A stretch of DNA of 64,000 nt from the NCBI GenBank assembly GCA_040285855.1, contig JAUFOQ010000003.1, positions 868,001-932,000 of the forward strand. The letters are read 5' to 3'. A program made the translations under genes and the position numbers. The notes below the pieces were generated by a model. It did no database searches and was not told the DNA's origin. It saw nothing but the letters and a program-made list of their open reading frames with translations. The DNA is from Eukaryota sp. GEM-RC1 (lineage: Eukaryota). Every line of letters starts with the position of its first letter. Within the stretch, counting starts at the first letter, position 1. Positions 32,524 through 58,847 of this stretch are shown piece after piece.

Positions 32524-32538
32524 TTCTCTATATTCCAT

Positions 32539-33697: not shown

Positions 33698-34376
33698 CTG
33701 GAAAATACAAGGGTTGAACAAAATACAGATACAAAAATACAAAATAAAATCAAATACAATACTACAAATTCAATGATCTTGTGTTATCTGTATTTTTAGT
33801 TGTGTACATCGAAAACAATGATGTAAATGTATCGCCTACATGTACTAGTACATGTATTTAGATTCGTGTCTACAAGTGGCTCTTATATATTTTCTTCTTA
33901 CTTTGGTTAAACGATAATTCCTTCAGTATATAGAGACTGATGAATTGTCCTCGTCAAACTCAATTCTGATATTCTTTCTTGTTGGTCAGGTTTTGGCACG
34001 TATTTTGTGTCCTGTTAATGGAGAAACACAATCAATGAGCAATTCTTCCGCCAATTATTCCTTGACCTAGTCCAGTAAACTACTGTAGTAGTTTGTTCAT
34101 CTGTCTTCTGTTTTGGTTTGCTGATAAACTACTACAACTACTTCGTCATGTATCTTTATTTGTATCATGTTTTTATTTACTTCTGTGCATCACATGAAGA
34201 AGAATTGGAGAAAAGAGAACTACGTCTACATTCAAAATAGGTACTTTACAGGTAAGTAAGTTCAGAATCCTACTCTCAAAAAAAATACGGCATTTTAATA
34301 CTGAAAATATAAAATACAAATACACAAATACACTAAATATAAAAAAACAGAAAATACAGAAAAATGTATTTTCCAG
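33698..34376. mobile_element. Possible degraded MITE
   Basis: 12-bp inverted termini CTGGAAAATACA / TGTATTTTCCAG with AAATAC repeats clustered near both ends. No TSD seen. Confidence 0.4.
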
Positions 34377-34803
34377 ATAACGTGCTATAACAATCATGCA
34401 ATATTTGGTGATAACATTGAGTCTCCATGCAGGAGACTTTTAGATATTTAATTACAGTCAATAACAGGTATTTCGTGCACGATTACTTGTTCATTATCAA
34501 AATTGTAATTTTCAGTTAACGCAAAAATATCTTCCATAACTGAAAGAGACTGCTGACCTTCAAAAAGCACATAAAGTTTCTACGTAAGGCAATGGGTTTT
34601 TGAAGAAGTTCAACACATGTTGGATATGTCATTCTTCTATGCCACTTCAAGGAATTTGGGTAAATTTCTACTGTTTCACGTACAAACAACCTAAGACTAT
34701 AAACGAAACCCCCATTCAACACGTGTTGAGGTAACTCCGAACAAAGACAAAAACCCAAATTTCTTCACAACTTTGCTCACATCTCTTTTGAAGTTCTTTC
34801 CTG

Positions 34804-37275: not shown

Positions 37276-39042
37276 TTAAAATTGATAATTAAACAGTCTG
37301 CTAAATACATCTTCCTCAAACATTTTGACAGTCTCGTGGTAAAGATTTAGAACTGAACTCACTGCTTCCACTTCCTCTTCATCTATTCCCTGCACTATAT
37401 CAACAACACTAACAGACAGCTGACATATCAAATCATACACTTCATCAACATCACGTAAATACAACGGAATCAACACCGCACAAGACTGAAGAGCAAGGGA
37501 AAACTCAGGTAGAAACTCTTTCAGAAACTCCACAACTCTCTCTTCTTCCTCTTTAGAACTTCCCTTAATAGAACGAAGCTTCCCACAAGAAACTTTGACT
37601 ATGGATCTACAAGTGGAGAATCTATGGAAGTTGACAACTGATAGGCAAATGTTATAAGCGTTGGATTTTGTTGACGATTGTTGATCCCCAGGTGATTCAA
37701 CAATCAAATCAGTCTTGTACTTTCCTAAATCATTCATTAACAAACTAAACTGCTGGAGAGCATATAGATTAGCATTAACTTCATCACAATACCCATTCAA
37801 AAACTCCTGGGCTTCTTTAATGGTCTCGACACAACAAGTAACTGCCATAGTACCAACTGATTGGAAATCAACAGTCGAACAAACTCCATGTAGATGTTCC
37901 AGTAGTGATGAAGTGGCAATAATAACAGGATGACGTGGCAGAACGTCATTAGAAAGTCCAACAAGAACTGATGGATATCGATCGTTGACGTTGGCTGGTA
38001 TTCTACTAAGTGACACGTGGATCTCTCGGTGAGCATAGTAGACAGCCTTCTCCTTACAAAATGAAGAGAGATCTCGTAGGGAGGGAAGGAGATGGGATTT
38101 GAGGATACTGTAGGAGTTGTAGCGGGCCATAGCTTCTACTAGTACTTTGAAACATTGGCAGAAACTATCGCAAGAAGAGTAGCTTTTTAAGGATTTTGAT
38201 AGAATTTGGAGAAGGTCAATGTATTTTTTAAATATTGGACTTGATAGATATTCTAAATCTGAAACTGAAGGTCCAAAATTACTCTGAGCCAAGTTGAATT
38301 CTGAGTTGATCTTGTGAGATAGTAGAGAGAGTGTAGATGCAGTTAGATAAGAAGGTTTGTTGTCAGTGGAAACGATTCGTAGAACTTCTTTCTTTGTGGT
38401 AAAGAAATCTCCAGAATTCAAGCGGAATTTGACGTACTGGTCTAATAGTTCTTTGAGATAAGAACGAGCAGCAGGTCTTCCAGCAAGTAGAGAAGAGAAG
38501 TCGGCAAGAGAGGAAGAGAGAGGAGAAGCTGATGAAAGACGAGAAATACAGGCAGAGGCTTGATAAAAGACATGTCGGTAAGCTCTGGAGAGGTATTGTT
38601 GATATGTATTGAGATAAGATTCAGCTGAATGAAGAGACTTGTTTGCAGAGAAGAAAGCTACACATTCTTCACATCGTTGCATGAAAAGTTTGTATTCAGA
38701 AAGAGAACACGGTAGTTGAGTGTTGCTGTCGTGATGAAATATAGGAGCAAGTCTTTCAGCATCAGTATAGAAGAGACGTATTTCGAGAATACGGTGTTTT
38801 AAAGCAACAAGATGGTCTTTTTGAGAAATGATAGGTAAACATTGGTGTTGGAGGGTGGACAGTGTGCTGTACATATCTGTGTAGCAAGAATTTAACGAAG
38901 AAAGTTTTTGCCAAGCGTTTGAACAATCATGAGACGCAGAAGACAGATAATTCTTCCGTGATTGTAGCTGAGTAATAGCATGTGCTAAGCCCGTAGAAAG
39001 CGACGGAGGGACTACATGAAGGTTGGGGGAAGAAGAAGACAT
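37276..39042 (-). CDS. COG3: Conserved oligomeric Golgi complex subunit 3 (Sec34)-like
   Basis: FMQRCEECVAFFSANKSLHSAESYLNTYQQYLSRA matches the Sec34 pattern L..LDECI.Y...NP.Y..S..YL..F.QCL.RA. Also HPVI...LLEHL..VCSTVDFQSV...AV..C and NLYALQQFSLL. Start taken at the first ATG (MSSSSP). Confidence 0.7.
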   Translation of the reverse strand: MSSSSPNLHVVPPSLSTGLAHAITQLQSRKNYLSSASHDCSNAWQKLSSLNSCYTDMYSTLSTLQHQCLPIISQKDHLVALKHRILEIRLFYTDAERLAPIFHHDSNTQLPCSLSEYKLFMQRCEECVAFFSANKSLHSAESYLNTYQQYLSRAYRHVFYQASACISRLSSASPLSSSLADFSSLLAGRPAARSYLKELLDQYVKFRLNSGDFFTTKKEVLRIVSTDNKPSYLTASTLSLLSHKINSEFNLAQSNFGPSVSDLEYLSSPIFKKYIDLLQILSKSLKSYSSCDSFCQCFKVLVEAMARYNSYSILKSHLLPSLRDLSSFCKEKAVYYAHREIHVSLSRIPANVNDRYPSVLVGLSNDVLPRHPVIIATSSLLEHLHGVCSTVDFQSVGTMAVTCCVETIKEAQEFLNGYCDEVNANLYALQQFSLLMNDLGKYKTDLIVESPGDQQSSTKSNAYNICLSVVNFHRFSTCRSIVKVSCGKLRSIKGSSKEEEERVVEFLKEFLPEFSLALQSCAVLIPLYLRDVDEVYDLICQLSVSVVDIVQGIDEEEVEAVSSVLNLYHETVKMFEEDVFSRLFNYQF

Positions 39043-39118
39043 TTGGTTCAAAAATCGAATTTCTGTGGCACTTTTCCCTTTGAAAGAAGATCTCTTTCGT
39101 CTTAAAGTGTTGTCGTTA
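39043..39118. promoter_or_regulatory. 76-bp divergent (bidirectional) promoter between COG3 and receptor A
   Basis: Head-to-head ATGs at 39042 (-) and 39119 (+). The segment is conserved upstream of receptor B (~48465-48537). Confidence 0.55.
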
Positions 39119-42100
39119 ATGACGCGTTTGACTTCTGCCGTGTTAATGCTTGTGCTGTTTACCTTATGTCTTGCCAATGACGTTCATTTTGTTCCTCCAG
39201 ATCCTCCTGATTCCACCGATCTCCTTTGGACTCGATCTGATCTCTGGACTCCTTCTCTTCCTACTGAAACTTCTAATGTCTACATTGATGGGAGTCAACT
39301 AGAGTCCTCTATCATTGTTAACAATGATGACGTCATCATCAACTCTCTTTACCTCACCAAAGTCGTTATTTCTATTGATTGTTCTTCTATCACAGTCAAT
39401 GGTTTCACTTCCGTCATTGATTCTTCCATTGATTCTACTTGTGATATCCGATCAGAGTTTACTTCACTTACTTATGAGTTTATTGGTGTTACAAAGTTGT
39501 CTGGTGTTAATCTAATTATTTTGGAGTTTGGAAAATTGATAGAACCACATTTAACTCTTGTCAATTCTAAAATAATTGTTAAAGAAGGTGCCACTTTAGT
39601 TGTTGATCAAAGTGACACGTCATCACCACTCATAGCTTGGGGCAATGGAGGACTAGGAAGAACTGGAACTGGTAATCAAGGTACTCATGGTCTTATGCCA
39701 GTCAATACTCAGCAGAGGTTTGCCTCGGTTTCCACCGGTGATTTTCACTCCTTAGGAGTCACTAGAGACGGCTTTCTCTACTCATGGGGGTCTAACAAAG
39801 AAGGGGATCCGAGAGCAGCGGGTCAACTTGGCTTGGGCGATGATGTTAATCGTCTTGTTCCAACAAAAGTAGATCTTTCCAATGTTGTCCAAGCTTCTGT
39901 TGGTAGCTGGCATAGTCTCGTTAGACTGAAAAATGGTGACGTTTACTCGTTTGGACGTGCAGGTGAAGGTCAACTCGGACATGGCAACACACACACCGAC
40001 GAACTATTTCCAAAAAAAAATTGATGACCTTTCAAATGTTGTTGATATTTCTGCTGGATCAATGAGTTCTTTAGCTGTGTTATCGAATGGAGAAGTGAAA
40101 GCTTGGGGTTATAACCCACACGGTGCCCTTGGAACAGGTTTAACTACTTCTCGTATCTTATCTCCCCAACGAGTTGTCATTAATCAACGAGTTAAGAAAG
40201 TCAATGGCGGTTATTACCACTCTCTTTTCATAACAGAAAGTGGTGAGTTATTTGCTGCTGGACGAAATCAATACGGAGAGCTTTGTGTTGGTGACACTGA
40301 TTCAAGAAATCTTCCTGTTCCTATTGTTAACTCTAAAGATTTCCATGTTATTCAAGCTAGACCTGGTAACTCTGCTTACACCTGGGAGCACATAACCACG
40401 ATTTTCCTCACTACTCAAGGTGAGGTATTCTCATGTGGTAGAGCTATTGGCCGATCTACCGATACAGTTCCAGCTCATTCCCCAGGAAAAGTTGAAGATA
40501 TGGGTGTGGTTTCAAGCATAACTAAAGGTTTTGATGCTGATAATAATGCCTTGTCGACGGATGGGGTTCTGTTTAGTTGGTCAAGTCGATCTGGTGCCCC
40601 CATCTTACCTTCTCCTGTTACTGAAACTTCTAAATTAAAGGTTGGTAAAGTGTATTCTGGATCATTTCATTGGTTTGTCCAAGAAACTATCAATACTGAT
40701 ATTTCCGGAAATGACGACTCTTCTATAGAAATTGCAGGAAAATTGGAGAACCGCCTTGAATTTCCTCTATTGTTCAATGTTTCAATCAGTATTCCTTGTA
40801 CCGGGGTTCTGTCGTCATATCGGTCACTCAAATTCAACACAAGTCTGGATAATTCTGGGATAATCAAAGTTGACGATTTTCTTCAATTGGACTCCTCTGT
40901 AGTCTTGGCCTTAAATGGTGGTAGTCTTGAAGCTAAACATGTTGTTGTTCAACAATATGCTTCAGTAACAGGCCGTGGATCAATTTTTTCAACTGTTTTT
41001 AATTACGGCACCATTAAACCAACTGGTGTACTTGAAATTCAAAAGGACTTGGTAATTGCTCAAAATTCGAATGTTTTATTAAGCTATAACAATAACACTC
41101 AATTAATTGTTAAAGGAATTCTTTCTGTAAATGGATCCTTTGTTTTTACTTTTCCCAATTCAATTCCTTCTAATTATACCATTTCTTTAGTTCTATTTGG
41201 TTCTTTACTTTCTGAACATGACTCATTTAAAGTGCAATGTGATCAGTATTTTGACTTGTTTTTGACGATTCTTCTATCAGCGTGTTAACAATTCACGATT
41301 TTCCGGGCCATGTTATTGAATCAGGCCAATGTCCCTCACCATTAAAGAATGTTGTTTACCTTGTCGTTCCCCTGAATAATTCCAATGATATTCTTTGGTC
41401 AAGAAATGATATCTGGGTACCATCTCCTCCTAATGAGAATTCCACTGTAATTATAGATGGTAATTATATTAATCAAGTTGTGTTTATTGACCAAAACGTC
41501 ATCATCAAATCTCTTCACCTCACAAATGTCGTCATTTCCATCGATTGTTCTTCAATTACAGTCAATGGTTTCACTTCCTTCATTGATTCTTCCATTGAAT
41601 CTACTTGTGATAATCGATCAGAGTTTACTTCACTTACATATGAGTTTATTGGTGTTACAAAGTTGTCTGGTATTAATCTAATTGTTTTGGAGTTTGGAAA
41701 ATTAATAGAACCACAGTTAACTCTTGTCGATGCTAAAGTAATTGTTAAAGAAGATGCCACAGTAGTTATTGATCAAAAGAAACGTCATCACCACTCTTAG
41801 CTTGGGGTAATGGAGAAGATGGTAGAACTGGAACTGGTAATCAAGATAGTCATGGTCTTATACCGGTCAATACAGATCAGATGTTTGCTTCAGTTGCTGC
41901 CGGTAAAGCACACTCTTTGGGAGTCACTAGAGATGGTTTTCTCTACTCATGGGGAGCTAATTCCTTGTCTGATCTTGGTGATACTGGTCAACTTGGCTTG
42001 GGAGATGCTGACAACAGACTAGTTCCAACTAAAGTAAATCTCACTAATGTTGTTCAAGCTTCTGCTGGATATGCTCATAGTCTCGTTAGACTAGAAAATG

Positions 42101-45100
42101 GTGACGTTTACTCTTTTGGAGCTTCACTTTTTGGTCAACTTGGACATGATAGTACTTCTCCTAATCAGTATTTTCCTCAAAAATTGAATCTCTTTCTAAT
42201 GTTGCTTCTGTTTCTGCTGGGTATGGCCATTCTTTAGCACTGTTGTCTAGCGGAGAAGCCAAGGCTTGGGGTTATAATGAATACGGTCAGCTTGGCATTG
42301 GATCATCAGGTTTTTCTGCCGGCAAGTCCTCTCCTCATTTAGTTACTTTTAACTTACCAGTCAAGAAAGTTGTAGCATGTTTCGAACACTCCTTTTTCCT
42401 TACTGAAAGTGGTGAGCTATTTGCTACAGGTAGGAATGACAATGGTCAGCTTTGTGTTGGAGATACCAATGACAGAAATAGTCCTACTCCCATTGTTAAC
42501 TCCAAAGATTTCCACGTGGTTCAAGTAAGTTGTGGTAGAAGTTCTTCAATCTTTTGACTTCCCAAGGTAACGTTTATTCTTGTGGTCAAATTCTAGGTAG
42601 ATCTACCAGTACAATTCCTGCTCATTCACCTGGGAAAGTTGAAAGATTGAAAAGGACTACCAGTATTCATAGCAGTTCAGAGATCATGTTTGCAGTTTCA
42701 CTAACTCGAATTTTGTATAGTTGGACTAAGACAAACTTACCTTCTGTTACAACTGAAACTATTGGCCTTGAGGTTGGTAAAGTCTTTGTTGGATATGATC
42801 ATTTTTTCATTGAAAGTATGGTTCAGTCTAATATCACTGGTGAAGGTTCTATTTTAGAAATTGAAGGAGAATTGTCAATCAATCTTGAACTACCTATGGT
42901 CCTCAACACTTCAATTATTGTTCATGCTTCTGGCAGATTCTTCTCTTTATATTCAGAAATGAGGTTGACAAAATCAATCGCAAACTCTGGAATGGTTAAA
43001 ATTGAGGGTCTTTTTGAAATTGACTCCACATCTACCTTGATTTTAATTGGTGGAACTGTTGAAGCTGATGATTGCTTCATCTCAGAGTTTGCTTCAATTA
43101 CAGGCTATGGATTAATTAATTCCATTGTTTTTAATTATGGAACATTTAATCTATCTGGTTTACTTGAAATTCAAAAAGACTTGGTAATTGCTCAAATTTC
43201 GAATGTTGTATTCAGCTATAACAACAATGAAACTCAATTGATTGTTAAAGGAGTTCTTTCTGTAAAAGGTATGTGTGTCTTTACTTTTCCCAATTCAATT
43301 CCTTCTAATTATACCATTTCTTTAATTCTATTTGGCTCTTTACTTTCTGAACATGACTCATTCAAAGTGCAATGTGATCAGTATTTTGACTTGTTTTTGA
43401 TGATTCTTCTATCAGCGTGGTAACTACCCTAGACTATCCAGGAATTGATCCTGTTTCAGGTCAGTGTCCTTTACCAGTAGTTGATCCTACCAGTCTAAAT
43501 CTACCTCTCAATAATTCTAATGATATTCTTTGGTCAAGAAATGATATCTGGGTACCATCTCCTCCTAATGAGAATTCCACTGTAATTATAGATGGTAATT
43601 ATATTAATCAAGTTGTATTCATTGATCAAAACGTCATCATCAACTCTCTTTACCTCACCGAAGTCGTTATTTCCCTTGATTGTTCTTCAATCACAGTCAA
43701 TGGTTTAACTTTCTTCATTGATTCTTCCATTGAATCTACTTGTGATACTGGATCAGAGTTTACTTCACTTACCTATGAGTTTATTGGTGTTACAAAGTTG
43801 TCTGGTATTAATCTAATTGTTTTGGAGTTTGGAAAATTAATAGAACCACAGTTAACTCTTGTCAATTCTAAAGTAATTGTTAAAGAAAATGCCACTTTAA
43901 TTGTTGATCAAAATCACACTTCATCATCACTCTTAGCTTATGGAGAAGATGGGAAAACGGGCTCTTTTAGTGAAAAGAACTTAAATACGAATAGCCATTC
44001 TAACCATTTGCTTGGAAAAGAACTGATAGAGTATAGTATTTCCGGAAATGATGACTCACATATTGAAATTGAAGGAACACTGCAAGTAGAAACAAATATT
44101 GAATCTTATTTGATTTTAGATATCTCAGTCGATGTTCTTTCTACCGGCCATCTTGTTTGCTCTTTTCCAGGTATTAAACTTAGAAATATCATTACCGTTT
44201 TGGGAGCAATCAAAACTGATGGTTCCCTTGATTTTGACTCATCGTCTACTTTTATTCTCAATGGAGGGACTGTCGAAGCCCATAACTTCTTCATTTCAGA
44301 ATTTTCTTCTATTTCTGGCATTGGTTATATTGATTCTACTGTTTTCAATTATGGAACCATTGAACCCTCTGGTGAAATTGAAATTGAAAATGATTTATTA
44401 TTGTATCCTAGCTCGAAATTAATATTCAATAACAAGGACTCCAACAACAAGTTCTTACATATTAAAGGAACAATCATTTTTAGTGGAAGCTTGATTCTTG
44501 ATTTTTTTAATCACCGTCACTGGTCTGGTCGCCTCAATCTAAATGATTCATTTACTTTGTTAATTTACGAAGAAAGAAACGCTGAGTTTAACACGATTTC
44601 AATCAATTGTGAGTCTCTTTTGAAATTACTCAAACTGAAAGCTCTCTTTCTATTGTTGTTGTCTCAGAATTTCCAGAATTTACTAGTACTGATGAACTTA
44701 TTTGCCCAACAGAGGAGGATCCAAATAATCCCAAAGACCCGGAGCCAATTGATCCCGACCCCGAAGATTCTAAGAAGCAACAGATTCTGCCTTTTACCGT
44801 AGATTTTAAATTTGTCTTTTTCCTTATGATTTCACTGATCATACTTGTTCTAATCGGATGGTGTCTCCTTTTCCGAAAGCAGAAGACTTCCGCTGATTTC
44901 AATCCTTCAAATCTTCTTCCTCTTAAGAAGAATCCCATCTTTTCTGAAACTATTACAAGTACTCAAGACAAAATCCTGGAAAACACGTATTCTATTAAAT
45001 CTCCTCAAGTTAACCACCAATCAGTAGTTTCCTCCCTTTGCAGTACCATCTCAAACATGAAAGATGACTTAGCTGAATGGGAACCACAGCAGTACATTGA

Positions 45101-46955
45101 GTCAATAACTGCACCAATTCTTGACACTCTGACTCTTCTTACTTCTTCTTCTTCAGTTTTTTCTCCGATTGGAATGGCTCTGGGCACGTTGTTTACCTCA
45201 ATCAAAAACGTCAAGATCAATAAAACTCAAGCTGCAGTTCTTGGAGCTAGAGTTTTAAGACTAACAAAGCTTACTCTGTCTCAATTAGAAACTAACATGG
45301 AACTGGCAGAGTCACCAATGTTCTCTGAACTTTTGAAAAATTTCACAAATATTTGTAATCGAGTTAATACCGTGGTTACACAACATGACGATGCTCAATG
45401 GTTTAAGCGAACATTTACTCATGAAAAATTCAAAAGAGAATTTGAAATGTGTAACAAACTTTTGGATGATTTTTCATCAGAGTTGCTAATTGCTTTTGCT
45501 GGAAAGACTTTTGAAAAGTTGCCACCTTTATCCCAACAAAAGGTCGATGCAATCATTGACTTCGATCAAGAAGAATTCCATTCATCACTGGCCAATCACA
45601 ATCAAATTTTATTGAAAGAAATGCGTTTAGAATTCCGAGAGTTACAAAAACAAATCTCGTCTGCTACTGAAAAGTCTATTAAAGCTGCTCTTGAAGAACA
45701 ACAACAACTTCATACAGAACAACGTAAAGCTCTTCAAAACCAAATATTAGAAAATCAAACAACAAAAGAAATTCAATCAAATATTTCTGCAGTTGAATTA
45801 GAAATTGATTGGGAAACTTCCCTATTTAGTGGTCAATCTGAAGTCGTTCATGCTGAATATGCTCTTAGTGAAGTTGTTGTTAAACTGTATTATAGTACTG
45901 GTAAAATTAGTCCAGAGCTTGCAAGAGAATTCTCCATTTTAAGTTCTCTCCCCAATGTTCCTTCATTACCCAGAATTTATGGTCTTACTTTGGTACTAAA
46001 GAATGGCAAGGAACGCTATGGTCTTGTAATGGAACGACTATCAAGTGTAACTCTAAAGGACAAAATTTCAAAAATCAAAACTGAAAACAAAAAGCTTGAT
46101 GTGTTAATTAGTATAGCTAATGCTTTGGTATCTTGCCACGAGTCAAAGTTCCTTCATCGAGATCTAAAACCAGACAATATTCTGTTTAGAGGTGCTTGTC
46201 CAGTGATTATTGATTGGGGAAGTGGTAAACATATTGGAAATTCAAATATGTCATTATCTTTAAATTCTAATAGAGTTTTGACTCCCAATTGGGCTAGTCC
46301 TGAGCTCGTTTCAGATGACACCGTCTACGCTGATTCGATTGACGTTTTCTCATTTGCTTTGATTGCAGTCTATGTGTTCACAGAGGAATCAATTTGGCAA
46401 GACTTTGAAGGATTTCCTAATAGAGATCAACTGATTATTGAATCACTCAGAACTGGTGATATTCCTGATATTCCCCATCACTCTGGTCTTCCCACTGCTC
46501 TCTTACCTCTTCTACGTCAATGTCTCCAGTTTAAATACACTGAACGTCCAAACATGCAACAAGTTGTTTCAATTCTATCAGCGTTTAGACACAAGAGTTC
46601 TCCAGTAGATTGTCTTAATCTAGGGAATATTTACCTTTGTGATTATGGATTGACTTTGATTGACAAGGAATATGTTCAAAATGGACCGCTTGAAGTTTGT
46701 TTGGAGATTTATTCCAAAATCTCTCTATTATTAGAGTTTTGTTACTCTCAAGATCTCAGCAGCAAGTTTTCTCTGGTATTAGATTTAATTGAAGGTCTAC
46801 ATGAGATTCCTTCTGCTCTAGTTGAAAGAAAGAAGCGTATTGATAGACTTTTGAGTCGCCGGTTCACTCTTCAGGCAGCAATTCCAGTATTTGATTTGAA
46901 TGTTCCTCAAGAACCTGAACAACTAGATGTTGTTGTTGAACGTTTTTCTTCGTAG
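39119..46955 (+). CDS. Receptor A: signal peptide, 3 ectodomain modules (2 with RCC1 propellers), TM helix, MLKL-like four-helix bundle, coiled coil, protein kinase (~2600 aa reconstructed across 7 single-base frame breaks)
   Basis: Signal MTRLTSAVLMLVLFTLCLA. G8-like W..W.P..P...V.IDG starts. RCC1 repeats (SAG..HSL...G.VY.WG.N..GQLG.G). TM FVFFLMISLIILVLIGWCLLF then RKQK. VKINKTQAAVLGARVLRL...WFKRTFTHEKFKREFEMCNKLLDD. Kinase VVVK, HRDLKPDNIL, IIDWG, TPNWASPE, DVFSFA. Breaks at ~40015, 41260, 41777, 42181, 42554, 43396, 44619. Confidence 0.75.
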
Positions 46956-47897: not shown

Positions 47898-48470
47898 AGA
47901 AAATCTCCAGAATTCAAGCGGAATTTGATGTATTGGTCTAGCAATTCTTTGAGGTAAGAACGAGCAGCAGGTCTTCCAGCAAGTAGAGAAGAGAAGTCAG
48001 CAAGAGAGGAAGAGAGAGGAGAAGCTGATGGAAGACGAGAAATACAGGCAGAGGCTTGATAAAAGACATGTCGGTAAGCTCTGGAGAGGTATTGTTGATA
48101 TGTATTGAGATAAGAGTCAGCTGAATGAAGAGACTTGTTTGCCAGTAGAAAGCTGCACATTCTTCACAACGTTCCAGGAAAAGCTTATATTCAGAAAGAG
48201 AGCACGATAATTGAGTGTTGCTGTCGTGATGAAATATAGGAGCAACAAGATGATCTTTTGGAGAAATGATAAGGAAACATTGATGTTGTAGAGTTCACAT
48301 CGTACTGAAAATATCTGTGTATCATGAGATCAACGAAGAAAGTTTTGCCAAGCATTTGAACAATCATAAGAGGCAGAAGACAAATAACTTTTCCGTGTCT
48401 GTAACTGAGATATTGTATCTGCTAGGCCGGTAGAAAGTGAATGAGAGGTTACATGGAGGGGTTGGGTTCA
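47898..48470 (-). pseudogene. Decayed 5' fragment of COG3 co-duplicated with the receptor gene
   Basis: Aligns with ~38404-39050 (ANKSLHSADSYLNTYQQYLSRAYRHV...). It has internal deletions and the COG3 ATG segment is missing. Confidence 0.88.
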
Positions 48471-48537: not shown

Positions 48538-51500
48538 ATGACACGTTTAAGTTCTGCAGTGTTAATTCTTTTGCTGGCCACCTTATGTCTTGCTAATGAC
48601 GTTCATTTTGTTCCTCCTGATCCTCCTGATTCTACCGATCTCCTTTGGACTCGGTCTGATCTCTGGACTCCTTCTCCTCCTACTGAAACTTCCAATGTCT
48701 ACATTGATGGGAGTCAACTAGAGTCCTCTATCCTTGTGAACAATGATGACGTCATCATAAACACTCTTTACCTTACCAATGTCGTTCTTTCTCTTGATTG
48801 TTCTGCAATCACAGTCAATGGTTTCACTTCCTTTATTGATTCTTCCATTGAGTCTACTTGTGATATTCGATCAGAACTTACTTCACTTACCTATGAGTTT
48901 ATTGGTGTTACAATGTTGTCTGGTATTAATCTAATTGTTTTGGAGTTTGGAAAATTCGTAGAACCACAGTTAACTCTTGTCAATTCTAAAGTAATTGTTA
49001 AAGAAGATGCTACTTTAATTGTGGATCAAAGCGACACGTCATCACCACTCATAGCTTGGGGTAATGGAGAAGATGGGAAAACGGGAACTGGGCATCAAGG
49101 TACTCATGGTCTTATGCTAGTTAATACTCAACAGCAGTTTATTTCAGTTTCTGCTAGTGAAGTACATAATCTAGGTGTTACTAGAGATGGTTTCCTCTAC
49201 TCGTGGGGACAGAACTCTAAAGGACAACTTGGTTTAGGGGATACTACCAATAGATTAGTACCAACAAAGGTAGGGTTATCGAATGTTGTCCAAGCTTCTG
49301 CTGGTTTTGAGTACAGTCTTGTTAGACTAGGAAATGGTGACGTTTACTCCTTTGGAGGAGCTGGATGGAGTGGAAGACTTGGACATGGATCTTGGTCCAT
49401 AGATGAATATTTTCCTAGAAGAATTGAATCTCTTTCTAATGTTGTTGACATCTCTGCTGGATATTCACACTCACTGGCAGTAATGTCTAATGGAGAAGCA
49501 AAAGCCTGGGGATCTGGTACACATGGTAGACTCGGTACTGGGTCTTCGTCGTCCAGCTCTCCTCAGACAGTTCTTATCAACTTCTCTGTCAAGAAAGTCA
49601 GGGCAGGATATGATCACTCTATGTTCCTTACTGAAAGTGGTGAGCTATTTGCTTCAGGTTATAATTATAATGGTCAGCTTTGTGTTGGTGATACCACTAA
49701 TAGAAATGTCCCTACTCCTATTGTTAACTCTAAAGATTTCCACGTGATTCAAGTCAGTATCGGTAAAACCTTGAGTACCCGGACAACCATCTTCCTTACT
49801 ACTCAAGGTGAGGTGTTCTCATGTGGTAGAGCTATTGGCCGAACTACTGATACTGTTCCAGCTCATTCCCCAGGAAAAATTGAAGATATGGGTGTGGTTT
49901 CAAGAATTTCGTGTGGTGATTATGATGTTTTTGCTTTGGCGACTGGTGGGACCTTGTATAGTTGGTCACGTTGGTCCAATCGCTTTCCTTCTCCTGTTCC
50001 TGAAACTTCTGAATTAAAGGTTGGTAAAGTGTATTCTGGATCATATCATTGGTTTGTCCACGAAACTGTTGATACTGATATTTCCGGAGATGACGACTCT
50101 TCTATAGAAATTGCAGGAAAATTGGAAAACCGCCTTGAATTTCCTCTATTGTTCAATACTTCACTCATCATCCATTCTACTGGTGATCTATCATCAATTC
50201 AAAGCGTGAAGTTTGCAAAAAGACTGAGAAATTCAGGTACAATCACAATTGATGGTCTACTTGAATTTGACTCATCTTCAGTTATTTCTCTCTTAGGTGG
50301 CAGTATTAAAGCTAAAGATATTATATTTCAAGAATTTGCTTCTATTACAGGCTATGGATTGATCTATTCTACTGTTTTTAATTATGCAACAATTATTCCT
50401 TGCGGTGTACTTGAAATTCAAAAAGACTTGGTAGTGGCTCCCAATTCCAGGGTTTTACTAAACTATAACAACAATGAAGTCCAATTGGTTATTAAAGGAG
50501 TTCTTTCTGTAAATGGAACTATTGCTCTAAATGCTACTCGTCACCCTTCATCTGTTCACTTCTCTGTCTCTTTAGTTCTCTTTGGTTCATTGATTTCAGA
50601 GTATGCATCATTTCCTGTTTACTGCGATCACTACTTTGGCGTGTTTTTTGATGATTCTTTTTATCAGCGTGGTAACTACCCAAGACTATCCAGGTCCTGT
50701 CAATGTTTCAGGTCAATGTCCTTCACCAGCAGATAATCCATTCTATCTTGTCGTTCCCCTTAATAATTCTAATGGTATTCTTTGGTCAAGAAATGATATC
50801 TGGGTACCATCTCCTCCTAATGAAAATTCCACTGTAATTATAGATGGTAATTATATTAATCAAGTTGTATTTATTGACCAAACCGTCATCATCAACTCTC
50901 TTTACCTCACCAATGTCGTTATTTCTCTTGATTGTTCTTCAGTCACAGTCAATGGTTTCACTTCCTTCATTGATTCTTCTATTGAATCTACTTGTGATAT
51001 TCGATCAGAGTTTACTTCACTTACCTATGTGTTTATTGGTGTTACAAAGTTGTCTGGAATTAATCTAATTGTTTTGGAGTTTGGAAAATTAATAGAACCA
51101 CAGTTAACCCTTGTCAATTCTAAAGTAATTGTCGAAGAAGACGTTATGTTTATTGTTGACCAAAGTGACAAATCACTCATAGCTTGGGGTAATGGAAAAG
51201 ATGGAAAAACAGGAACTGGTAACCAAGGTCATCATGGTCTTATGTTAGTTCATACCGATAGGAAATTTCTTTCAGTTACCGCTGGTAAAGCACACTCTCT
51301 AGGAGTTACAAGAGACGGTTTTCTCTACTCTTGGGGAACAAACTTTGTGACTAACTTTGGTGAAACTGGCCAACTTGGCTTGGGAGATGCTGACAGTCGT
51401 ATGGCTCCCACAAAAATTAATTTGACCAGTGTTGTCCAAGCGTCTGCTGGTTATGGTCATAGTCTTGTTAGAGTAGAAAATGGTGACGTTTACTCTTTTG

Positions 51501-54500
51501 GAGCTTCACTTTTTGGTCAACTTGGACATGATAATACTTATCCCAATCAATATTTTCCTAAAAAAATTGAGTCTCTTTCTAATGTTGCTTCTGTTTCTGC
51601 TGGGTACGGACATTCTTTAGCACTTTTGTCTACCGGAGAAGCCAAGGCTTGGGGTTATAATGAATACGGTCAGCTTGGTATTGGATCATCAGGTTTTTCT
51701 GCCGGTAAGTCCTCTCCTCATCATGTGGCTCTTAACTTCCCTATCAAGAAAGCTGTAGCATGTTTTGAACACTCATTTTTCCTCACTGAAAGTGGTGAGC
51801 TATTTGCTACAGGTAGGAATCATCATGGTCAGCTTTGTGTTGGAGATATCAATAACAGAAATAGTCCTACTCCCATTGTTAACTCTAAAGATTTCCACGT
51901 GGTTGAAGTAAGTTGTGGTAAAAGGTCTTCTATCTTTTGACTTACCAAGGTAACGTTTATTCTTGTGGTCAGATACTAGGTAGATCTACCAGTACAGTTG
52001 CTGCTCATTCTCCTGGGAAAGTTGAATTGTTGGAGAATATCATGAGTATTTCTAGTGGGTACAGTACACATATCACGTCATCAGTGTCTGGCACCTTATT
52101 TAGTTGGTCTGACAACAATCTACCTGCTCCTAATTTGAATACTCTCGAGTTTACGGTAAGAAAGCCAGTTGCAGGTTCTGATTACTTCTTTATCCAGGAA
52201 ATGATTTCGTCGGATATTATTGGAGATGAAAACTCTGTTATTGATATTGAAGGTACGTTTACTGTTCTTGATGTGTTCCCTTTGAATTTTGCTTCTTCAT
52301 GTACAATTCGTTCTACTGGAAGTCTTTTGTTCTCCTATTATGGAATGAAAATATTAAAAAATGTTGAAACTGATGGAACAATGCACGTTGATGGTCTTCT
52401 TGAATTTGACTCGTCATCTACTTTGATTCTAAATGGTGGCATTGTAAAATCTAATGATGTAATAGTTCATGAATTCGCTTCTATTATTGGTAATGGATTA
52501 ATCAATTCTAATGTTGTAAATTTGGGAACAATTATTCCTTCTGGTGTACTTAAAATTCAAAATGATTTGGTAATTGCTCAAAATTCGAATGTCTCATCAA
52601 CATATAACAACAACACTCAATTGATTGTTAACGGAATTCTTTCTGTAAATGGACTGTTTGTTTTTACTTTTCCCAATTCAATTCCTTCTAATTATACCAT
52701 TTCTTTAGTTCTATTTGGCTCTTTACTTTCTGAACATGACTCATTCAAAGTTCAATGTGATCAGTATTTTGACTTGTTTTTGATGATTCTTCTATCAGCG
52801 TGGTAACTACCCAAGACTATCCAGGAATTGATCCTGTTTCAGGTCAATGTCTTTTGCCTTTAGATCCCAATGTTTATCTTGTTGTTCCCCTTAATAATTC
52901 TAATGATATTATTTGGTCAAGAAATGATATCTGGGTACCATCTCCTCCTAATGAGAATTCCACTGTAATTATAGATGGTAATTATATTAATCAAGTTGTA
53001 TTTATTGACCAAAACGTCATCATCAACTCTCTTTACCTCACCAATGTCGTTCTTTCTCTTGATTGTTGTTCAATCACAGTCAATGGTTTCACTTCCTTCA
53101 TTGATTCTTCCATTGAATCTACTTGCGATATTCGATCAGAGTTTACTTCATTTACCTATGAGTTAATTGGTGTTACAAAGATGTCTGGTATTAATCTAAT
53201 TGTTTTGGAGTTTGGAAAATTAATAGAACCACAGTTAATTCTTGTCAATTCTAAAGTAATTGTTATAGAAGATGCTAGATTAATTGTAGATCAAAGTGAC
53301 ATTATTCAATCTAATATTTCTGGAAATGAGCATTCTGATTTTCAAATTGAAGGCACGTTCGAAACTCGTCATACATTGCCTTTGGTTTTGGATACACATG
53401 TTTCTATTTCTTCAACCGGAACTCTTTTGGCTTTTTTCAATGGCCTTAAAGTTGGAAAATCAATGGAGAATTCTGGAGTAATCAGTGTTAGTGGTCTTCT
53501 TGAATTTGACTCGCCATCTACTTTGATTCTGAATGGTGGCAGTGTTAAAGCTAAGAATGTAACAGTTCAAGAATTGGCTTCAATTACAGGCTTTGGATTA
53601 ATCAATTCCACTGTTGTTAATTATGGAAAAATTATTCCTTCTGGTTTACTTGAAATTCAGAAGGATTTTGTAATTGCTGAACATTCTAGTGTTTTATTAA
53701 ACTATAACAACAATGAAACTCAATTGATTGTTGACGGAATTCTTTCTGTTAATGGATCTTTTGTTTTTACTTTTCCCAATTCAATTCCTTCTAATTATAC
53801 CTTTTCTTTAGTTCTATTTGGATCTTTACTTTCTGAACATGACTCATTCAAAGTTCAATGTGATCAGTATTTTGACTTGTTTTTGACGATTCTTCTATCA
53901 GCGTGGTAACTACCCAAGACTATCCAGGTCCTGTCAATGTTTCAGGTCAATGTCCTTCACCAGTAGATAATCCTTTCTATTTTGTCGTTCCCCTTAATAA
54001 TTCTAATGATATTCTTTGGTCAAGAAATGATATCTGGGTACCATCTCCTCCTAATGAGAATTCCACTGTAATTATAGATGGTAATTATATTAATCAAGTT
54101 GTATTTATTGAACTAACCGTCGTCATCAACACTCTTTACCTCACCAATGTCGTTCTTTCTCTTGATTGTTCTTCAATCACAGTCAATGGTTTCACTTCCT
54201 TCATTGATTCTTCCATTGAATCTACTTGCGATATTCGATCAGAGTTTACTTCATTTACCTATGAGTTAATTGGTGTTACAAAGATGTCTGGTATTAATCT
54301 AATTGTTTTGGAGTTTGGAAAATTAATAGAACCACAGTTAATTCTTGTCAATTCTAAAGTAATTGTTACAGAAGATGCCACTTTAATTGTTGACCAAAGT
54401 GACATTATTCAATCCAATATTTCTGGAAATGGGCATTCTGTTATTCAAATTGAAGGTTTATTCGAAACTCGTGATACATTGCCTTTGGTTTTGGATACAG

Positions 54501-57500
54501 ATGTTTCTATTTCTTCAACCGGAACTCTCTTATCTTTGTTCAATGGCCTAAAAGTTGGTAAATCAATGGAGAATTCTGGAGTAATCAGTGTTGATGGTCT
54601 TCTTGAATTTGACTCATCATCTACTTTAATTCTTAATGGTGGCAGTGTTAAAGCTGAGAATGTAATAGTTCAAGAATCTACTTCAATTACAGGCTATGGC
54701 TTAATCAATTCAACTGTTTTTAATTATGGAACAATTATTCCTTCTGGCGAACTTGAAATTCAAAATGACTTGGTAGTTGCTCAACACTCGAATGTTTTAT
54801 TAAGCTATAACAACAACACTCAGTTGATTGTTAACGGAATTCTTTCTTTAAATGGATCCTTTGTTTTTGCTTTTCCCAATTCAATTCCTTCTAATTATAC
54901 CATTTCTTTAGTTCTATTTGGTTCTTTACTTTCTGAACATGACTCATTCAAAGTTCAATGTGATCACTACTTTGGCGTGTTTTTGACGATTCTTCTATCA
55001 GCGTGGTAACTACCCAACAATATCCAGGTCTTGTCAATGTTTCAGGTCAATGTCCTTCACCAGTTGTTAATCCTTTCTATCTAGTTGTTCCCCTTAATAA
55101 TTCTAATGATATTCTTTGGTCAAGAAATGATATCTGGGTACCATCTCCTCCTAATGAGAATTCCACTGTAATTATAGATGGTAATTATATTAATCAAGTT
55201 GTATTTATCGACCAAAACGTCATCATCAACTCTCTTTACCTCACCAATGTCGTTCTTTCTCTTGATTGTTCTTCAATCACAGTCAATAGTTTCACTTCCT
55301 TCATTGATTCTTCCATTGAATCTACTTGCGATATTCGATCAGAGTTTACTGCATTTACCTATGAGTTAATTCGTGTTACAAAGATGTCTGGTATTAATCT
55401 AATTATTTTGGAGTTTGGAAAATTAATAGAACCACAGTTAATTCTTGTCAATTCTAAAGTAATTGTTACAGAAGATGCCACTTTAATTGTTGACCAAAGT
55501 GACATTACTCAATCTAATATTTCTGGAAATGGGCATTCTGTTATTCAAATTGAAGGTTTATTCGAAACTCGTGATACATTGCCTTTGGTTTTGGATACAG
55601 ATGTTTCTATTTCTTCAACCGGAACTCTCTTATCTTTGTTCAATGGCCTTAAAGTAGGAAAATCAATGGAGAGTTCTGGAGTAATTAGTGTTGATGGTCT
55701 TCTTGAATTTGACTCATCATCTACTTTAATTCTTAATGGTGGCAGTGTTAAAGCTAAGAATGTAATAGTTCAAGAATCTACTTCTATTACAGGCTTTGGA
55801 TTAATCAATTCCACTGTTGTTAATTATGGAACAATCATTCCTTCTGGTGTACTTGAAATTCACAAAGACTTGGTAGTTGCTCAACATTCGAATGTTTTAT
55901 TAACCTATAACAACAACACTCAATTAATTGTTAAAGGAATTCTTTCTGTAAATGGATCCTTTGTTTTTACTTTTCCCAATTCAATTCCTTCTAATTATTC
56001 CATTTCTTTAGTTATATTTGGCTCTGTACTTTCTGAACATGACTCATTCAAAGTTCAATGTGATCAGTATTTTGACTTGTTTTTGGACGATTCTTCTATC
56101 AGTGTGGTAACTACCCTAGACTATCCAGGGATTGATCCTGTTTCAGGTCAGTGTCCTTTACCATTAGATACCAATGTTTACCTTGTTGTTCCCCTTAATA
56201 ATTCTAATGATATTCTTTGGTCAAGAAATGATATCTGGGTACCATCTCCTCCTAATGAGAATTCCACTGTAATTATAGATGGTAATTATATTAATCAAGT
56301 TGTATTTATCGACCAAAACGTCATCATCAACTCTCTTTACCTCACCAATGTCGTTCTTTCTCTTGATTGTTCTGCAATCACAGTCAATGGTTTCACTTCC
56401 TTCATTGAATCTTCCATTGAATCTTCTTGTGATACTCGCTCAGAGTTTACTTCACTTACCTATGAGTTTATTGGTGTTACAAAGTTGTCTGGTATTAATC
56501 TAATTGTTTTGGAGTTTGGAAAATTAATAGAACCACAGCTAATTCTTTTCAATTCTAAAATAATTGTTAAAGAAGATGCTAGATTAATTGTTGACCAAAG
56601 TGACATTATTCAATCTAATATCTCTGGAAATGGGCATTCTGCTATTCAAATTAAAGGTTTATTCGAAACTCGTGATACATTGCCTTTGGTTTTGGATACA
56701 GATGTTTCTATTTCTTCAACAGGAACTCTCTTGGCTTTTTTCAGTGGTCTAAAAGTTGGAAAATCAATGGAGAGTTCTGGAGTAATCAGTGTTAATGGTT
56801 TACTTGAATTTGACTCGTCATCTACTTTGATTCTTAATGGTGGTAGTGTTAAAGTTAAGAATGTAATAGTTCAAGAATTGGCTTCAATTACAGGCTTTGG
56901 ATTAATCAATTCTACTGTTCTTAATTATGGAACAATTAAACCTTCTGGTTTACTTGAAATTCAGAAGGATTTTGTAATTGCTGAACATTCTAGTGTTTTA
57001 TTAAACTATAACAACAATAACACTCAATTAATTGTTAACGGAATTCTTTCTGTAAATGGATCCTTTGTTTTTGCTTTTCATAATTCAATTCTTTCCAATT
57101 TTACCTTTTCTTTAGTTCTATTTGGCTCTTTATATTCTGAACATGACTCATTCAAAGTTCAATGTGATAAGTATTTTGACTTGTTTTTGATGATTCTTCT
57201 ATCAGCGTGGTAACTACCCAAGACTATCCAGGAATTGATCCTGTTTCAGGTCAATGTCTTTTACCAGTAGTTAATCCTACTAATCTAGACCTACCTCCTA
57301 ATAATACTAGAGACATTCGCTGGTCAAGAAATGATATCTGGGTACCATCTCCTCCTAATGAGAATTCCGCTATAATTATAGATGGTAAAAACATTAATCA
57401 AGTTGTATTCATTGACCAAAACGTCAACATCAACTCTCTTTCCCTCACCAATGTCGTTATTTCTCTTGATTGTTCTACAATCACAGTCAATGGTTTCACT

Positions 57501-58847
57501 TCCTTTATTGATTCTTCCTTTGAGTCTACTTGTGATATTCCATCAGAGTTTACTTCACTTTCTTATGAGATTATTGGTGTTACAAAGTTGTCTGGAATTA
57601 ATCTAAATGTTTTGGAGTTTGGAAAATAATAGAACCACAGTTAAATTTTGTCAATTCTAAAGTAAATGTTAAAAAAGATGCTAGATTAATTGTTGGCCAA
57701 AGGGATAGGTCTTCACCACTCTTAGCTTGGGGTAATGGAAAAGATGGAATAACAGAAGCTCTTAGAACGAAGAACTTAAAAACGAATACCCATTCTAATC
57801 AGTTACTTGAAGAAGTGTTGATGGAATATAGTATTTCTGGAAATGATGACTCTCATATTGAAATCGAAGGAACTTTGGACGTAGAAAACAATTTTGAATC
57901 TTATTTACTTTTAGATATTTCAGTCGATGTTCTTTCGTCTGGTTCTTTAATATGCTCTTTTCCAGGTATTAAACTAGTAAATACTATTACCGTTTTGGGA
58001 GCAATCACAATTGATGGTTTTCTTGATTTTGACTCATCATCTACTTTTATTCTCAATGGAGGAACTGTCGAAGCCCATAACTTTTTCATTTCAGAATTTT
58101 CTTCTATTTCCGGCATTGGTTATATTAATTCTACTGTTTTCAATTATGGAACCATTGAACCTTCTAGTGAAATTGAAATTCAAAATGATTTAATACTGTA
58201 CCCTAGTTCGAAATTAATGTTTAGTAACAAGGAATCCAACAGCCAGTTCTTACGTGTTAAAGGAACAATCATTTTTAATGGAAGCTTGAGTATTGATTTC
58301 TTCAATCACCACCTCAATCTAAATGATTCGTTTACTTTGTTTTATTTTGAAAAAGGAAATGCTGAGTTTAGCTCTATTTCAATCAATTGTGAGTCTCTTT
58401 TGAAATTACTCAAACTGAAAGCTCTCTTTCTCTTGTTGTTGTCTCAGAATTTCCAGAATTGACTAATGGTGAACTTATTTGCCCAGCATCCGTAGATCCT
58501 AAAGACCCAAAGGAACAACTTAAGTCCACCTTCGATTTCAAATTTGTAGTCTTCATAACGAGTTCAATTATTATAGTTGTTTTAGTCGCATGGTTTTTAT
58601 TGTGTCGAAAAAGCAAAAATCATCAGATTTAAATCCAGTAATTCTTCTCGACCTAAAGAAAAAACCCAAGATCTTTACTGAATATACGCCAAGATTTGAC
58701 TCCAAAGTCCTTGCTCTCGTTGAAAGAAAGAAGCGTATTGATAGACTTTTGATTCAAAGGGCTGCTCTTAAGGAAGAAATTTCAGTAATTGATTTGAATA
58801 TTGCAGACGAACCCCAACAGGATGTTGTTATTGAAAGTTACAATTGA
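48538..58847 (+). CDS. Receptor B: paralogue with 7 ectodomain modules (2 with RCC1 propellers), TM helix and short tail; no MLKL or kinase domain (~3400 aa reconstructed across ~9 single-base frame breaks)
   Basis: Signal MTRLSSAVLILLLATLCLA and modules homologous to receptor A. TM FVVFITSSIIIVVLVAWFLL. Tail KQKSSDLNPVILLDLKKKP...ALVERKKRIDRLL...DVVIESYN*. Confidence 0.72.
52800..57206 (+). repeat. Four tandem ~1.10-kb coding repeats (propeller-less stalk modules)
   Basis: VTTQDYPG...GQCP...SEHDSFKVQCD units start at ~52800, 53903, 55003 and 56104. Confidence 0.92.

What the first reader, a model, noticed from the sequence alone, without database searches (positions are those of the whole stretch)
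44620..46955. Transmembrane receptor with an MLKL-type cell-death four-helix bundle and kinase on its cytoplasmic side
Seen: after the TM helix and a ~85-aa linker comes PIGMALGTLFTSIKNVKINKTQAAVLGARVLRL...LLKNFTNICNRVNTVV...WFKRTFTHEKFKREFEMCNKLLDDFSSELL (~45130-45500). A Gln/Glu coiled coil follows, then a kinase with catalytic Lys, HRDLKPDN, DWG and ASPE but a degenerate Gly loop. Known: the pattern NK.Q...L..RV..L...W.KR....F..EF...N..L is typical of the MLKL N-terminal (HeLo-like/RPW8-related) bundle, and bundle-brace-kinase is the MLKL layout. Characterised MLKLs are soluble with a free N-terminal bundle. Inference: a whole MLKL-like unit is wired to a ~1900-aa RCC1/beta-helix ectodomain. 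That would be a one-chain sensor-executioner receptor for a necroptosis-like or immune response in a protist. I do not know this architecture from described proteins.
Basis: partly seen in the sequence, partly recalled or inferred. Interest (0 to 1): 0.88.

Follow-up and report, generated by a model that had tools for sequence, protein, structure and literature searches.

The report
Receptor kinase with built-in MLKL bundle
A gene of a free-living anaerobic protist joins a membrane helix, a helix bundle related to the animal cell-killing protein MLKL and a kinase with intact catalytic motifs, most likely behind a huge outer sensor in one chain, so it is likely a receptor that would trigger its own membrane-damage or alarm response, although no function has been tested.

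Summary
One unbroken frame (44613-46955) encodes a TM helix, a linker, two cap helices, an MLKL_N bundle (Pfam cut-off passed; MLKL chains top a PDB sequence search), brace helices, a kinase with intact Lys/Glu/HRD/DWG and a helical tail. The 1,880-aa RCC1/beta-rich ectodomain upstream is cut by seven single-base breaks at homopolymers with no stop codon, most likely nanopore errors. Database models from two sister species hold the whole layout in one chain, aligned almost gap-free across the breaks. The finding's protein equals an NCBI model of the metamonad Skoliomonas sp. GEM-RC. The bundle-kinase cassette is a Skoliomonas family fused to RCC1, LRR, B-box, Sel1, Ras and TM domains. A tandem paralogue keeps ectodomain and TM but lacks bundle and kinase. 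It is not an MLKL proper: the kinase looks active and the bundle is tethered and capped, whereas N-terminal tags block MLKL killing. Killing is untested (about 0.45 for membrane attack). Ten literature searches found no description. This scan noted a type-II counterpart on other DNA (e1-7623266, unchecked).

The parts
39119..46955 (+). Whole receptor gene; 2,612 aa when read through seven single-base frame breaks (about 40014, 41260, 41778, 42180, 42554, 43395, 44619)
   Evidence: 0 stops in 8 of 8 segments; 53% identity over 2,119 columns to P0009; breaks located
39119..39175 (+). Predicted signal peptide (19 aa)
   Evidence: Hydrophobic N-terminus read; matching N-termini in P0009 and P0004; no dedicated predictor was run
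39176..41285 (+). Ectodomain unit 1: beta-rich repeat with an inserted RCC1 propeller (about 39620-40690)
   Evidence: Pfam RCC1 above cut-off; unit and RCC1 markers; beta-solenoid nature is only a lead
41286..43416 (+). Ectodomain unit 2: beta-rich repeat with a second RCC1 propeller (about 41790-42810)
43417..44813 (+). Ectodomain unit 3 (RCC1 insert reduced to a stub of about 35 aa) and Pro/acidic stalk; holds the frame break at about 44619
   Evidence: Alignment A6; junction aligns with P0009 with one gap
44814..44870 (+). Single transmembrane helix followed by basic residues (type I topology inferred)
   Evidence: Hydropathy 3.0, the only TM in P0001
44871..45011 (+). Variable juxtamembrane linker (about 45 aa)
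   Evidence: TM plus linker 16-32% identical to P0004/P0009; pLDDT under 50
45012..45149 (+). Two conserved cap helices in front of MLKL helix 1
   Evidence: Model helices 3-15 and 21-47 at pLDDT 79-92; MLKL residue 1 aligns to model residue 48; present in members that start with the cassette
45150..45518 (+). MLKL-type four-helix bundle
   Evidence: Pfam MLKL_N above cut-off; PDB sequence search; Z 9.2, rmsd 3.0 A, 120 residues to 6ux8; ESM Atlas
45519..45782 (+). Brace helix and Gln/Glu-rich helical pair
   Evidence: Predicted helices
45783..46592 (+). Protein kinase with intact K424, E439, HRDLKPDN and DWG; Gly loop SGQSEV
   Evidence: Pfam Pkinase E 1.8e-28; motifs
46593..46955 (+). C-terminal helical domain of no known family, then tail and stop
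   Evidence: pLDDT about 86-91; no Pfam hit at E 0.05; 27-92% identical across 7 relatives
48538..58847 (+). Tandem paralogue: signal peptide, seven beta units (two with RCC1), TM, then directly the last 45 or so tail residues; bundle and kinase absent
   Evidence: 80-84% DNA identity in the ectodomain; similarity jumps from about 44950 to 46814 of gene 1; tail 79% identical; unit count

Best explanation
This is most likely a single-pass surface receptor of the metamonad Skoliomonas in which a lineage-specific MLKL-bundle/brace/kinase cassette sits behind a modular RCC1-propeller ectodomain, and it likely works as a one-chain sensor, switch and effector: ligand binding would cluster the receptor, the kinase would phosphorylate neighbouring copies, and the bundle would be freed from its cap and brace to permeabilise the membrane it is tethered to. 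Shown by sequence: TM, bundle, brace and kinase in one frame; intact catalytic motifs; conservation in three species. Strongly inferred: the ectodomain is on the same chain and the breaks are assembly errors (about 0.9). Inferred by analogy with MLKL, HeLo and RPW8-type domains: clustering, autophosphorylation in place of RIPK3, and membrane attack, as lysis or ion flux, in defence or non-self recognition. Release may need cleavage in the variable linker. The paralogue without a cytoplasmic module would act as co-receptor or decoy.
For: MLKL_N passes the Pfam cut-off. A profile of 7 Skoliomonas bundles alone ranks human MLKL chains at 1-5 and 7 of 8 PDB hits, 117 residues ungapped, E 0.012. 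The bundle model (pLDDT 85.6) aligns to human, mouse and Arabidopsis MLKL in the same register (Z 9.2, 8.8, 8.3). Full-length mouse MLKL 4btf is the top Foldseek hit of the cytoplasmic model. P0004 (1,254 aa) and P0009 (3,640 aa) carry signal, RCC1, TM, bundle and kinase in one model each. Between the window and P0009 the bundle is the most conserved part: 89% against 83% for the kinase and 55% for the tail domain. It is basic (pI 8.5-9.6 in 8 of 8). HRD and DWG are intact in 14 of 15 kinase-bearing Skoliomonas relatives (P0008 and P0026 left out as duplicates). The cassette is fused to LRR, RCC1, Sel1, B-box, Ras and TM domains, as immune repertoires are. Ectodomain unit number varies: 3, 5 and 1, and 7 in the paralogue.
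Against: N-terminal tags block killing by mouse and human MLKL (PMC7305131, PMC4716306, passages), and here the bundle carries a 46-aa cap, a linker and a TM in front. For fungal MLKL-like domains with extra N-terminal helices, death activity is stated to be open (PMC9815663, passages). The fold match is not diagnostic: MLKL ranks 11th among generic bundles, and Foldseek gave no hit at E<=0.001 for the bundle model. The Skoliomonas-only PDB match is weak (E 0.012). The E 1e-14 leans on four non-Skoliomonas rows in the alignment. Against P0004-P0007 the kinase is as conserved as the bundle or more. The DNA behind P0004 and P0009 could not be seen, so their gene models may hide introns. A benefit of suicide in a solitary flagellate is not shown.
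Confidence: 0.45

Rival explanations
1. An ordinary signalling receptor kinase: the bundle, cap and coiled coil serve as an oligomerisation or adaptor module, and the output is phosphorylation of other proteins (feeding, encystment, prey or mate sensing) with no membrane damage.
For: Kinase motifs are intact in 14 of 15. The bundle is internal in several relatives (P0001, P0004, P0009, P0017, P0020). The cap is kept even where the cassette starts the protein. N-terminal additions block MLKL killing. For wheat Pm13 the authors leave open whether the bundle kills or senses. Recalled, not tested: plant U-box N-terminal domains resemble this bundle and are not known as pore formers.
Against: Characterised homologues in animals, plants and fungi target membranes. 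The family's partners are repeat sensors in varied fusions. One member keeps the bundle and LRRs without the kinase (P0012).
Confidence: 0.33
2. A ligand- and kinase-gated, non-lethal cation (calcium) channel, as proposed for some plant four-helix-bundle proteins: a tethered bundle gives a graded signal, not lysis.
For: ESM Atlas neighbours include MCAfunc clusters (scores 0.88 and 0.85). MLKL and ZAR1 are described as cation channels (PMC12881547 passages). Tethering would limit pore size (inference). That plant MCA proteins are calcium channels is recalled.
Against: MCAfunc matched only 1 of 14 alignment members, at E 0.018, against 12 of 14 for MLKL_N. Atlas scores under 0.9 are leads only.
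Confidence: 0.14
3. This copy is a decaying pseudogene or a split gene: the breaks are real, and only a soluble bundle-kinase from an internal Met (residue 149), or nothing, is made.
For: Seven breaks in 5.5 kb despite Illumina polishing. Real indels also favour homopolymers. NCBI models a 96%-identical copy as starting at that Met (P0002). GT-AG intron options exist at 6 of 7 breaks, and the organism appears to have tiny introns (32 nt in a PALP-family gene).
Against: No stop codon in 2,612 codons. A one-base fix scores higher against P0009 than any intron option at each of those 6 breaks (e.g. 125 vs 93 at the TM junction). The same motif is one base short in 6 of 8 repeat copies, in both sequence variants, so the break recurs and was not simply inherited. 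The GEM-RC genome has 8.9% fragmented BUSCOs against 3.0% in its transcriptome. Even if true for this copy, P0004 and P0009 keep the architecture.
Confidence: 0.08

Closest known systems
Animal MLKL (PDB 4btf, 6ux8; Pfam PF22215)
   Same: Bundle, brace and kinase-fold order; the bundle passes MLKL_N and aligns in register with MLKL 1-121.
   Different: MLKL is a soluble pseudokinase with a free N-terminal bundle switched on by RIPK3. Here the kinase motifs are intact, the bundle is capped and tethered behind a TM helix, and a helical domain follows the kinase.
Wheat Pm13 and plant MLKL_NTD-kinases / AtMLKL (PMC10951266; 6ka4)
   Same: MLKL_NTD, brace and a kinase with all catalytic residues (Pm13, predicted active); immune role; Z 8.3 to AtMLKL3.
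   Different: The bundle is N-terminal; no ectodomain or TM appears in the passages read; the Pm13 kinase is of the RLK/Pelle family. A moss row in the supplement of PMC10463195 has DUF1221-kinase-Sel1 with a C-terminal TM, but there too the bundle is at the N-terminus.
Basidiomycete MLKL-like (BaMLKL) and Goodbye domains of fungal NLRs (PMC9815663)
   Same: MLKL core with extra N-terminal helices; all-in-one fusion with repeat sensors; the top Atlas cluster is mostly basidiomycete.
   Different: Cytosolic NLRs with a NACHT switch; here the switch is a kinase and the sensor is outside the cell.
Plant RCC1-ectodomain receptor kinases (AT3G09780; the name CRINKLY4-related is recalled)
   Same: Signal peptide, RCC1 repeats, one TM, Ser/Thr kinase (supplement row).
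   Different: No MLKL bundle in that row; a TNFR repeat instead of beta-rich units; 775 aa.
Bdelloid rotifer MLKL_N + kinase proteins (P0022 Rotaria, P0023 Didymodactylos)
   Same: Nearest named non-Skoliomonas bundles (E about 1e-4 in 1.84e9 proteins; hhalign probability 94.5%).
   Different: No TM, free N-terminal bundle, no cap, DFG-type kinase far from the Skoliomonas kinases in the tree.

Membership tests
MLKL_N domain family (Pfam PF22215) | Score above the curated cut-off | tested here: met
   32.6 and 37.9 bits against 27; 26.0 for P0009 and 23.1 for P0004, just under the cut-off
MLKL_N domain family (Pfam PF22215) | Four-helix bundle superposable on MLKL | tested here: inconclusive
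   Z 9.2, rmsd 3.0 A, 120 aligned, 18% identity (highest of 50 rows, with 4btf), but rank 11 among generic bundles; no Foldseek hit at E<=0.001
MLKL proteins (necroptosis executioners) | Bundle-brace-kinase-fold order | tested here: met
MLKL proteins (necroptosis executioners) | Catalytically dead pseudokinase | tested here: not met
   K424, E439, HRDLKPDN and DWG present; Gly loop atypical. Activity itself was not assayed
MLKL proteins (necroptosis executioners) | Soluble protein with the bundle at the free N-terminus | tested here: not met
   TM at 68-86 and cap at 134-179 precede the bundle in the same frame
MLKL proteins (necroptosis executioners) | Activation by RIPK3 and membrane permeabilisation | not testable with these tools
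   Needs experiment; no whole genome was held to look for partners
Single-pass (type I) receptor kinases | Signal peptide, ectodomain, one TM and cytoplasmic kinase on one chain | tested here: met
   In single models P0004 and P0009; in the window only after read-through of seven breaks
Single-pass (type I) receptor kinases | Surface location and ligand-dependent activation | not testable with these tools
   Needs experiment
Plant RCC1/TNFR receptor kinases (AT3G09780 type) | TNFR cysteine-rich repeat after the RCC1 propeller | tested here: not met
   No TNFR hit in Pfam scans of the ectodomain ORFs or of P0009 and P0004
BaMLKL / Goodbye-like fungal effector domains | Extra N-terminal helix or helices before MLKL helix 1 | tested here: met
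   Two helices, model residues 3-47; homology to the fungal helix was not tested
BaMLKL / Goodbye-like fungal effector domains | Match to Goodbye, NACHT_N or HeLo-like profiles | tested here: inconclusive
   Goodbye and NACHT_N are not among the 25 of 31 families shown for 14 members; PF17111 matched 1 member at E 0.0086

The most novel reading that the evidence does not exclude
Skoliomonas, a free-living anaerobic metamonad with extremely reduced mitochondria, has its own immune-like repertoire built on an MLKL-bundle/active-kinase cassette. It includes type I surface receptors in which ligand sensing, the RIPK3-like switch and the necroptosis-like membrane attack sit in one chain, with a sensor-only paralogue next door as decoy or co-receptor.
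Probability: 0.35. Interest if true: 0.9.

Novelty: new variant of a known kind. Interest (0 to 1): 0.75.

Why it matters
A survey of 67 protists found no necroptosis regulators and judged the pathway likely vertebrate-only (PMC7539657, passage). It searched MLKL by homology only, without a Pfam model. A conserved, expanded MLKL-domain family in a metamonad widens the range of this effector. The type I layout poses a testable question: can a bundle with a blocked N-terminus still attack membranes, by cap release or cleavage? If so, a receptor-to-pore circuit exists in one polypeptide, which bears on how necroptosis was assembled and on whether single cells use lytic self-defence, and it offers a compact ligand-triggered switch. 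If not, it shows the bundle reused as a signalling scaffold.

Tried and rejected
No whole genome is held, so family size and partners rest on database proteins and are lower bounds. No sequencing run was listed, so expression and the breaks could not be checked on reads; this is no evidence either way. Single-sequence search of the bundle against the PDB found nothing (best E 0.6). Four-copy complex prediction gave no answer (score 0.01, alignment not used). No related loci in metagenome or viral contigs. The broader search for longer proteins returned only 5 Skoliomonas proteins, with candidates capped at 7,988, so the same layout in other eukaryotes is not excluded. The beta-rich ectodomain unit has no Pfam, NCBIfam or significant PDB match; Atlas leads to bacterial passenger-like proteins are weak (0.85-0.90). 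A 59- or 68-nt intron from the GTGAGT at 44609 was considered and rejected because it creates a stop (read; not among the open options). As a control for indel noise, 8 MIF4G repeat copies gave only 2 single-base events, 1 at a run of 4: uninformative. Trees group P0001, P0002, P0003, P0004 and P0009 only weakly (kinase 85/94; bundle 83/89 with P0006 inside), so a single origin of the TM fusion is not shown. CAMP-factor and CheA hits (Z about 10, 6% identity) were taken as analogous bundles. Paper searches listed nothing on a TM + MLKL bundle + kinase protein or on Skoliomonas MLKL domains; the library lacks most subscription papers. The supplements of PMC11316075 that could be searched hold no MLKL or RCC1 entry; one file was too large and one had no text. 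Two of 8 supplement files of PMC10463195 were cut, and its Pfam table shows no MLKL_N entry, possibly because that model is newer.
Full report
What is in the sequence. The frame 44613-46955 (+) is open for 780 codons. It holds a Pro/acidic stalk, one strong hydrophobic helix (residues 68-86, score 3.0) followed by basic residues, a variable linker, a helical region and a protein kinase (Pfam Pkinase E 1.8e-28). Residues 193-309 match Pfam MLKL_N at 32.6 bits against a curated cut-off of 27; the isolated piece scores 37.9 bits. The link from TM to bundle to kinase is therefore shown directly and needs no correction. The kinase keeps the beta-3 Lys (424), the alphaC Glu (439), HRDLKPDN and DWG. 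Its Gly loop is reduced to SGQSEV, but that form is the same in all 8 aligned relatives. A confident helical domain of no known family follows the kinase.

Is the ectodomain on the same chain? Upstream, from an ATG at 39119, lie a signal-like N-terminus and three beta-rich repeat units, two with an inserted RCC1 propeller. In the window this stretch is cut by seven frame breaks. Read through with X, the gene gives 2,612 aa with no internal stop and aligns with P0009 at 53% over 2,119 columns. At all 7 breaks the best-scoring positions include one in or beside a run of four or more identical bases; 9.8% of the region lies so, though several breaks have a range of equally good positions. The junctions align to P0009 with 0 or 1 gap. 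Intron options exist at 6 of 7 breaks, and the organism appears to use tiny introns, but each option scores lower than a one-base fix (125 against 93 at the TM junction). One motif is a base short in 6 of 8 repeat copies and in both of its sequence variants, which points to a recurring error. The assemblies were made from R9 nanopore reads with Illumina polishing (PMC11316075, passages), and the GEM-RC genome shows 8.9% fragmented BUSCOs against 3.0% in its transcriptome (section 6). Reads could not be checked. I put the one-chain reading at about 0.9.

Organism and relatives. NCBI model GEMRC1_007345 (P0008, Eukaryota sp. GEM-RC1, i.e. Skoliomonas sp. GEM-RC) is 100% identical to the window ORF over 746 aa and bridges two breaks with predicted introns. 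Skoliomonas are free-living anaerobic bacterivores of soda lakes (PMC11603281, abstract). A profile of the bundle searched against 1.84 billion representatives gave 20 hits at E<=0.001. The top 16 of 20 are all Skoliomonas; the other 4 are two bdelloid rotifer proteins and two unnamed metagenome proteins, all 4 with MLKL_N above cut-off. The Skoliomonas cassette is fused to C-terminal RCC1 (P0005), LRRs (P0014, P0015, P0017), B-box and LRR without kinase (P0012), B-box and TM segments (P0013), N-terminal Ras and C-terminal Sel1 (P0020), several TM segments (P0006), or a C-terminal TM with a long segment beyond it (P0007, P0025). Several other hits are short or truncated models. HRD and DWG are intact in 14 of 15 kinase-bearing members, duplicates P0008 and P0026 left out. 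So the finding is one member of a lineage-wide module with many sensors. Trees do not settle whether the TM fusion arose once.

How good is the MLKL assignment? A profile from 7 Skoliomonas sequences only ranks MLKL chains at 1-5 and 7 of 8 PDB hits, over 117 ungapped residues, but at E 0.012. Adding more relatives, four of them non-Skoliomonas, gives E 1e-14. ESM Atlas neighbours are basidiomycete, oomycete and plant clusters with MLKL_N, MCAfunc or RPW8 (scores 0.94-0.85). A 25-sequence AlphaFold model has pLDDT 85.6. It aligns to human MLKL 1-121 from model residue 48 (Z 9.2, rmsd 3.0 A, 120 residues), to mouse MLKL (8.8) and to AtMLKL3 (8.3), but generic bundles score up to 11.3 and Foldseek found nothing at E<=0.001. 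The fold is thus consistent, not decisive; the sequence evidence carries the assignment. In front of MLKL helix 1 the model has two further helices (residues 134-179 of P0001), conserved also where the cassette starts the protein. Fungal BaMLKL and Goodbye domains have such extensions, and their death activity is stated to be open (PMC9815663, passages). Against P0009 the bundle is 89% identical, the kinase 83%, the brace 70% and the tail domain 55%; against P0004-P0007 the kinase is equal or higher. The bundle is under constraint and is not a relic.

The neighbour. A tandem paralogue (48538-58847) has the same signal, seven beta units (two with RCC1) and TM. Its similarity to gene 1 jumps from the juxtamembrane region to the last 45 or so codons, dropping about 1.9 kb that encode cap, bundle, kinase and helical domain. 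The tail is 79% identical, which fits an older deletion better than a mis-join. It carries about nine similar breaks. A sensor-only partner suggests a decoy or co-receptor; this is inference.

Mechanism. I commit to a one-chain sensor, switch and effector (0.45). Variable RCC1 heads on a beta-rich stalk would bind a ligand. Clustering would let the kinase phosphorylate neighbouring copies, doing the job of RIPK3. The bundle, already held near the inner leaflet, would be freed from cap and brace, perhaps after linker cleavage, and damage the membrane. All steps after the anatomy are inferred from MLKL, HeLo and RPW8-type domains (PMC12881547 and PMC10951266, passages). The main objection is that N-terminal tags block MLKL killing (PMC7305131 and PMC4716306, passages). 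Rivals: a signalling kinase with the bundle as scaffold (0.33), a non-lethal cation channel (0.14), a broken copy (0.08).

Comparison and novelty. It works, by anatomy, like a fusion of a receptor kinase and MLKL, but it fails two MLKL membership features: it is no pseudokinase and has no free N-terminal bundle. MLKL_NTD with a predicted active kinase is known (Pm13). RCC1-ectodomain receptor kinases are known in plants, and a moss DUF1221-kinase with a C-terminal TM appears in a supplement table (PMC10463195: abstract, term search and supplement search). A survey of 67 protists reported no necroptosis regulators. Ten searches of the held library (listings only, except for the papers cited) showed no description of a type I receptor with an internal MLKL bundle, or of this family in metamonads. 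A bioRxiv preprint on an Anaeramoeba symbiont names MLKL only in a figure legend (one passage). This scan has unchecked notes of a type II MLKL-kinase receptor with a propeller ectodomain and of a ROCO protein with an MLKL-like domain on other DNA; they are leads, not support. Verdict: a real, conserved and apparently undescribed architecture, a new variant of a known kind, with function untested; interest 0.75.

Noticed in passing
window 1-19600 (+): Array of about 11 near-identical 1.70-kb units, each with a MIF4G-domain (eIF4G-like) frame.
   Followed up: partly
window 7276-9452 and 19729-20580 (-): Retroelement-like pieces with a weak integrase match (rve E 0.0098) inserted in and after the MIF4G array, apparently at the same place in the unit.
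   Followed up: no
window 25723-27029 (-): PALP-family (threonine-synthase-like) gene whose two frames are joined by a 32-nt GT-AG stretch that looks like a true tiny intron.
   Followed up: partly
window 37276-39183 (-) and 47901-48245: COG3 gene lies head-to-head with the receptor gene, its start within about 100 bases; a 94%-identical COG3 fragment precedes the paralogue and marks the tandem duplication.
   Followed up: partly
window 60627-63681 (-): Broken non-LTR retrotransposon-like frames with RVT_1 (E 2e-8) and a weak zinc knuckle.
   Followed up: no
window 23362-36228: Ordinary genes: BTB protein, glycosyltransferase-61-like, AZUL+HECT ligase, IFT52.
   Followed up: no
window 39176-44700 and 48600-58460: The 355-aa beta-rich unit has no match in Pfam, NCBIfam or the PDB; RCC1 propellers are inserted at one fixed point, present, absent or reduced to a stub.
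   Followed up: partly
database proteins P0020, P0010, P0017: Other internal placements of the bundle in Skoliomonas models: behind a Ras-like GTPase with Sel1 repeats, behind an Hsp70 fragment (possibly a mis-joined model), and behind an extra helical stretch with a second weak profile match.
   Followed up: no
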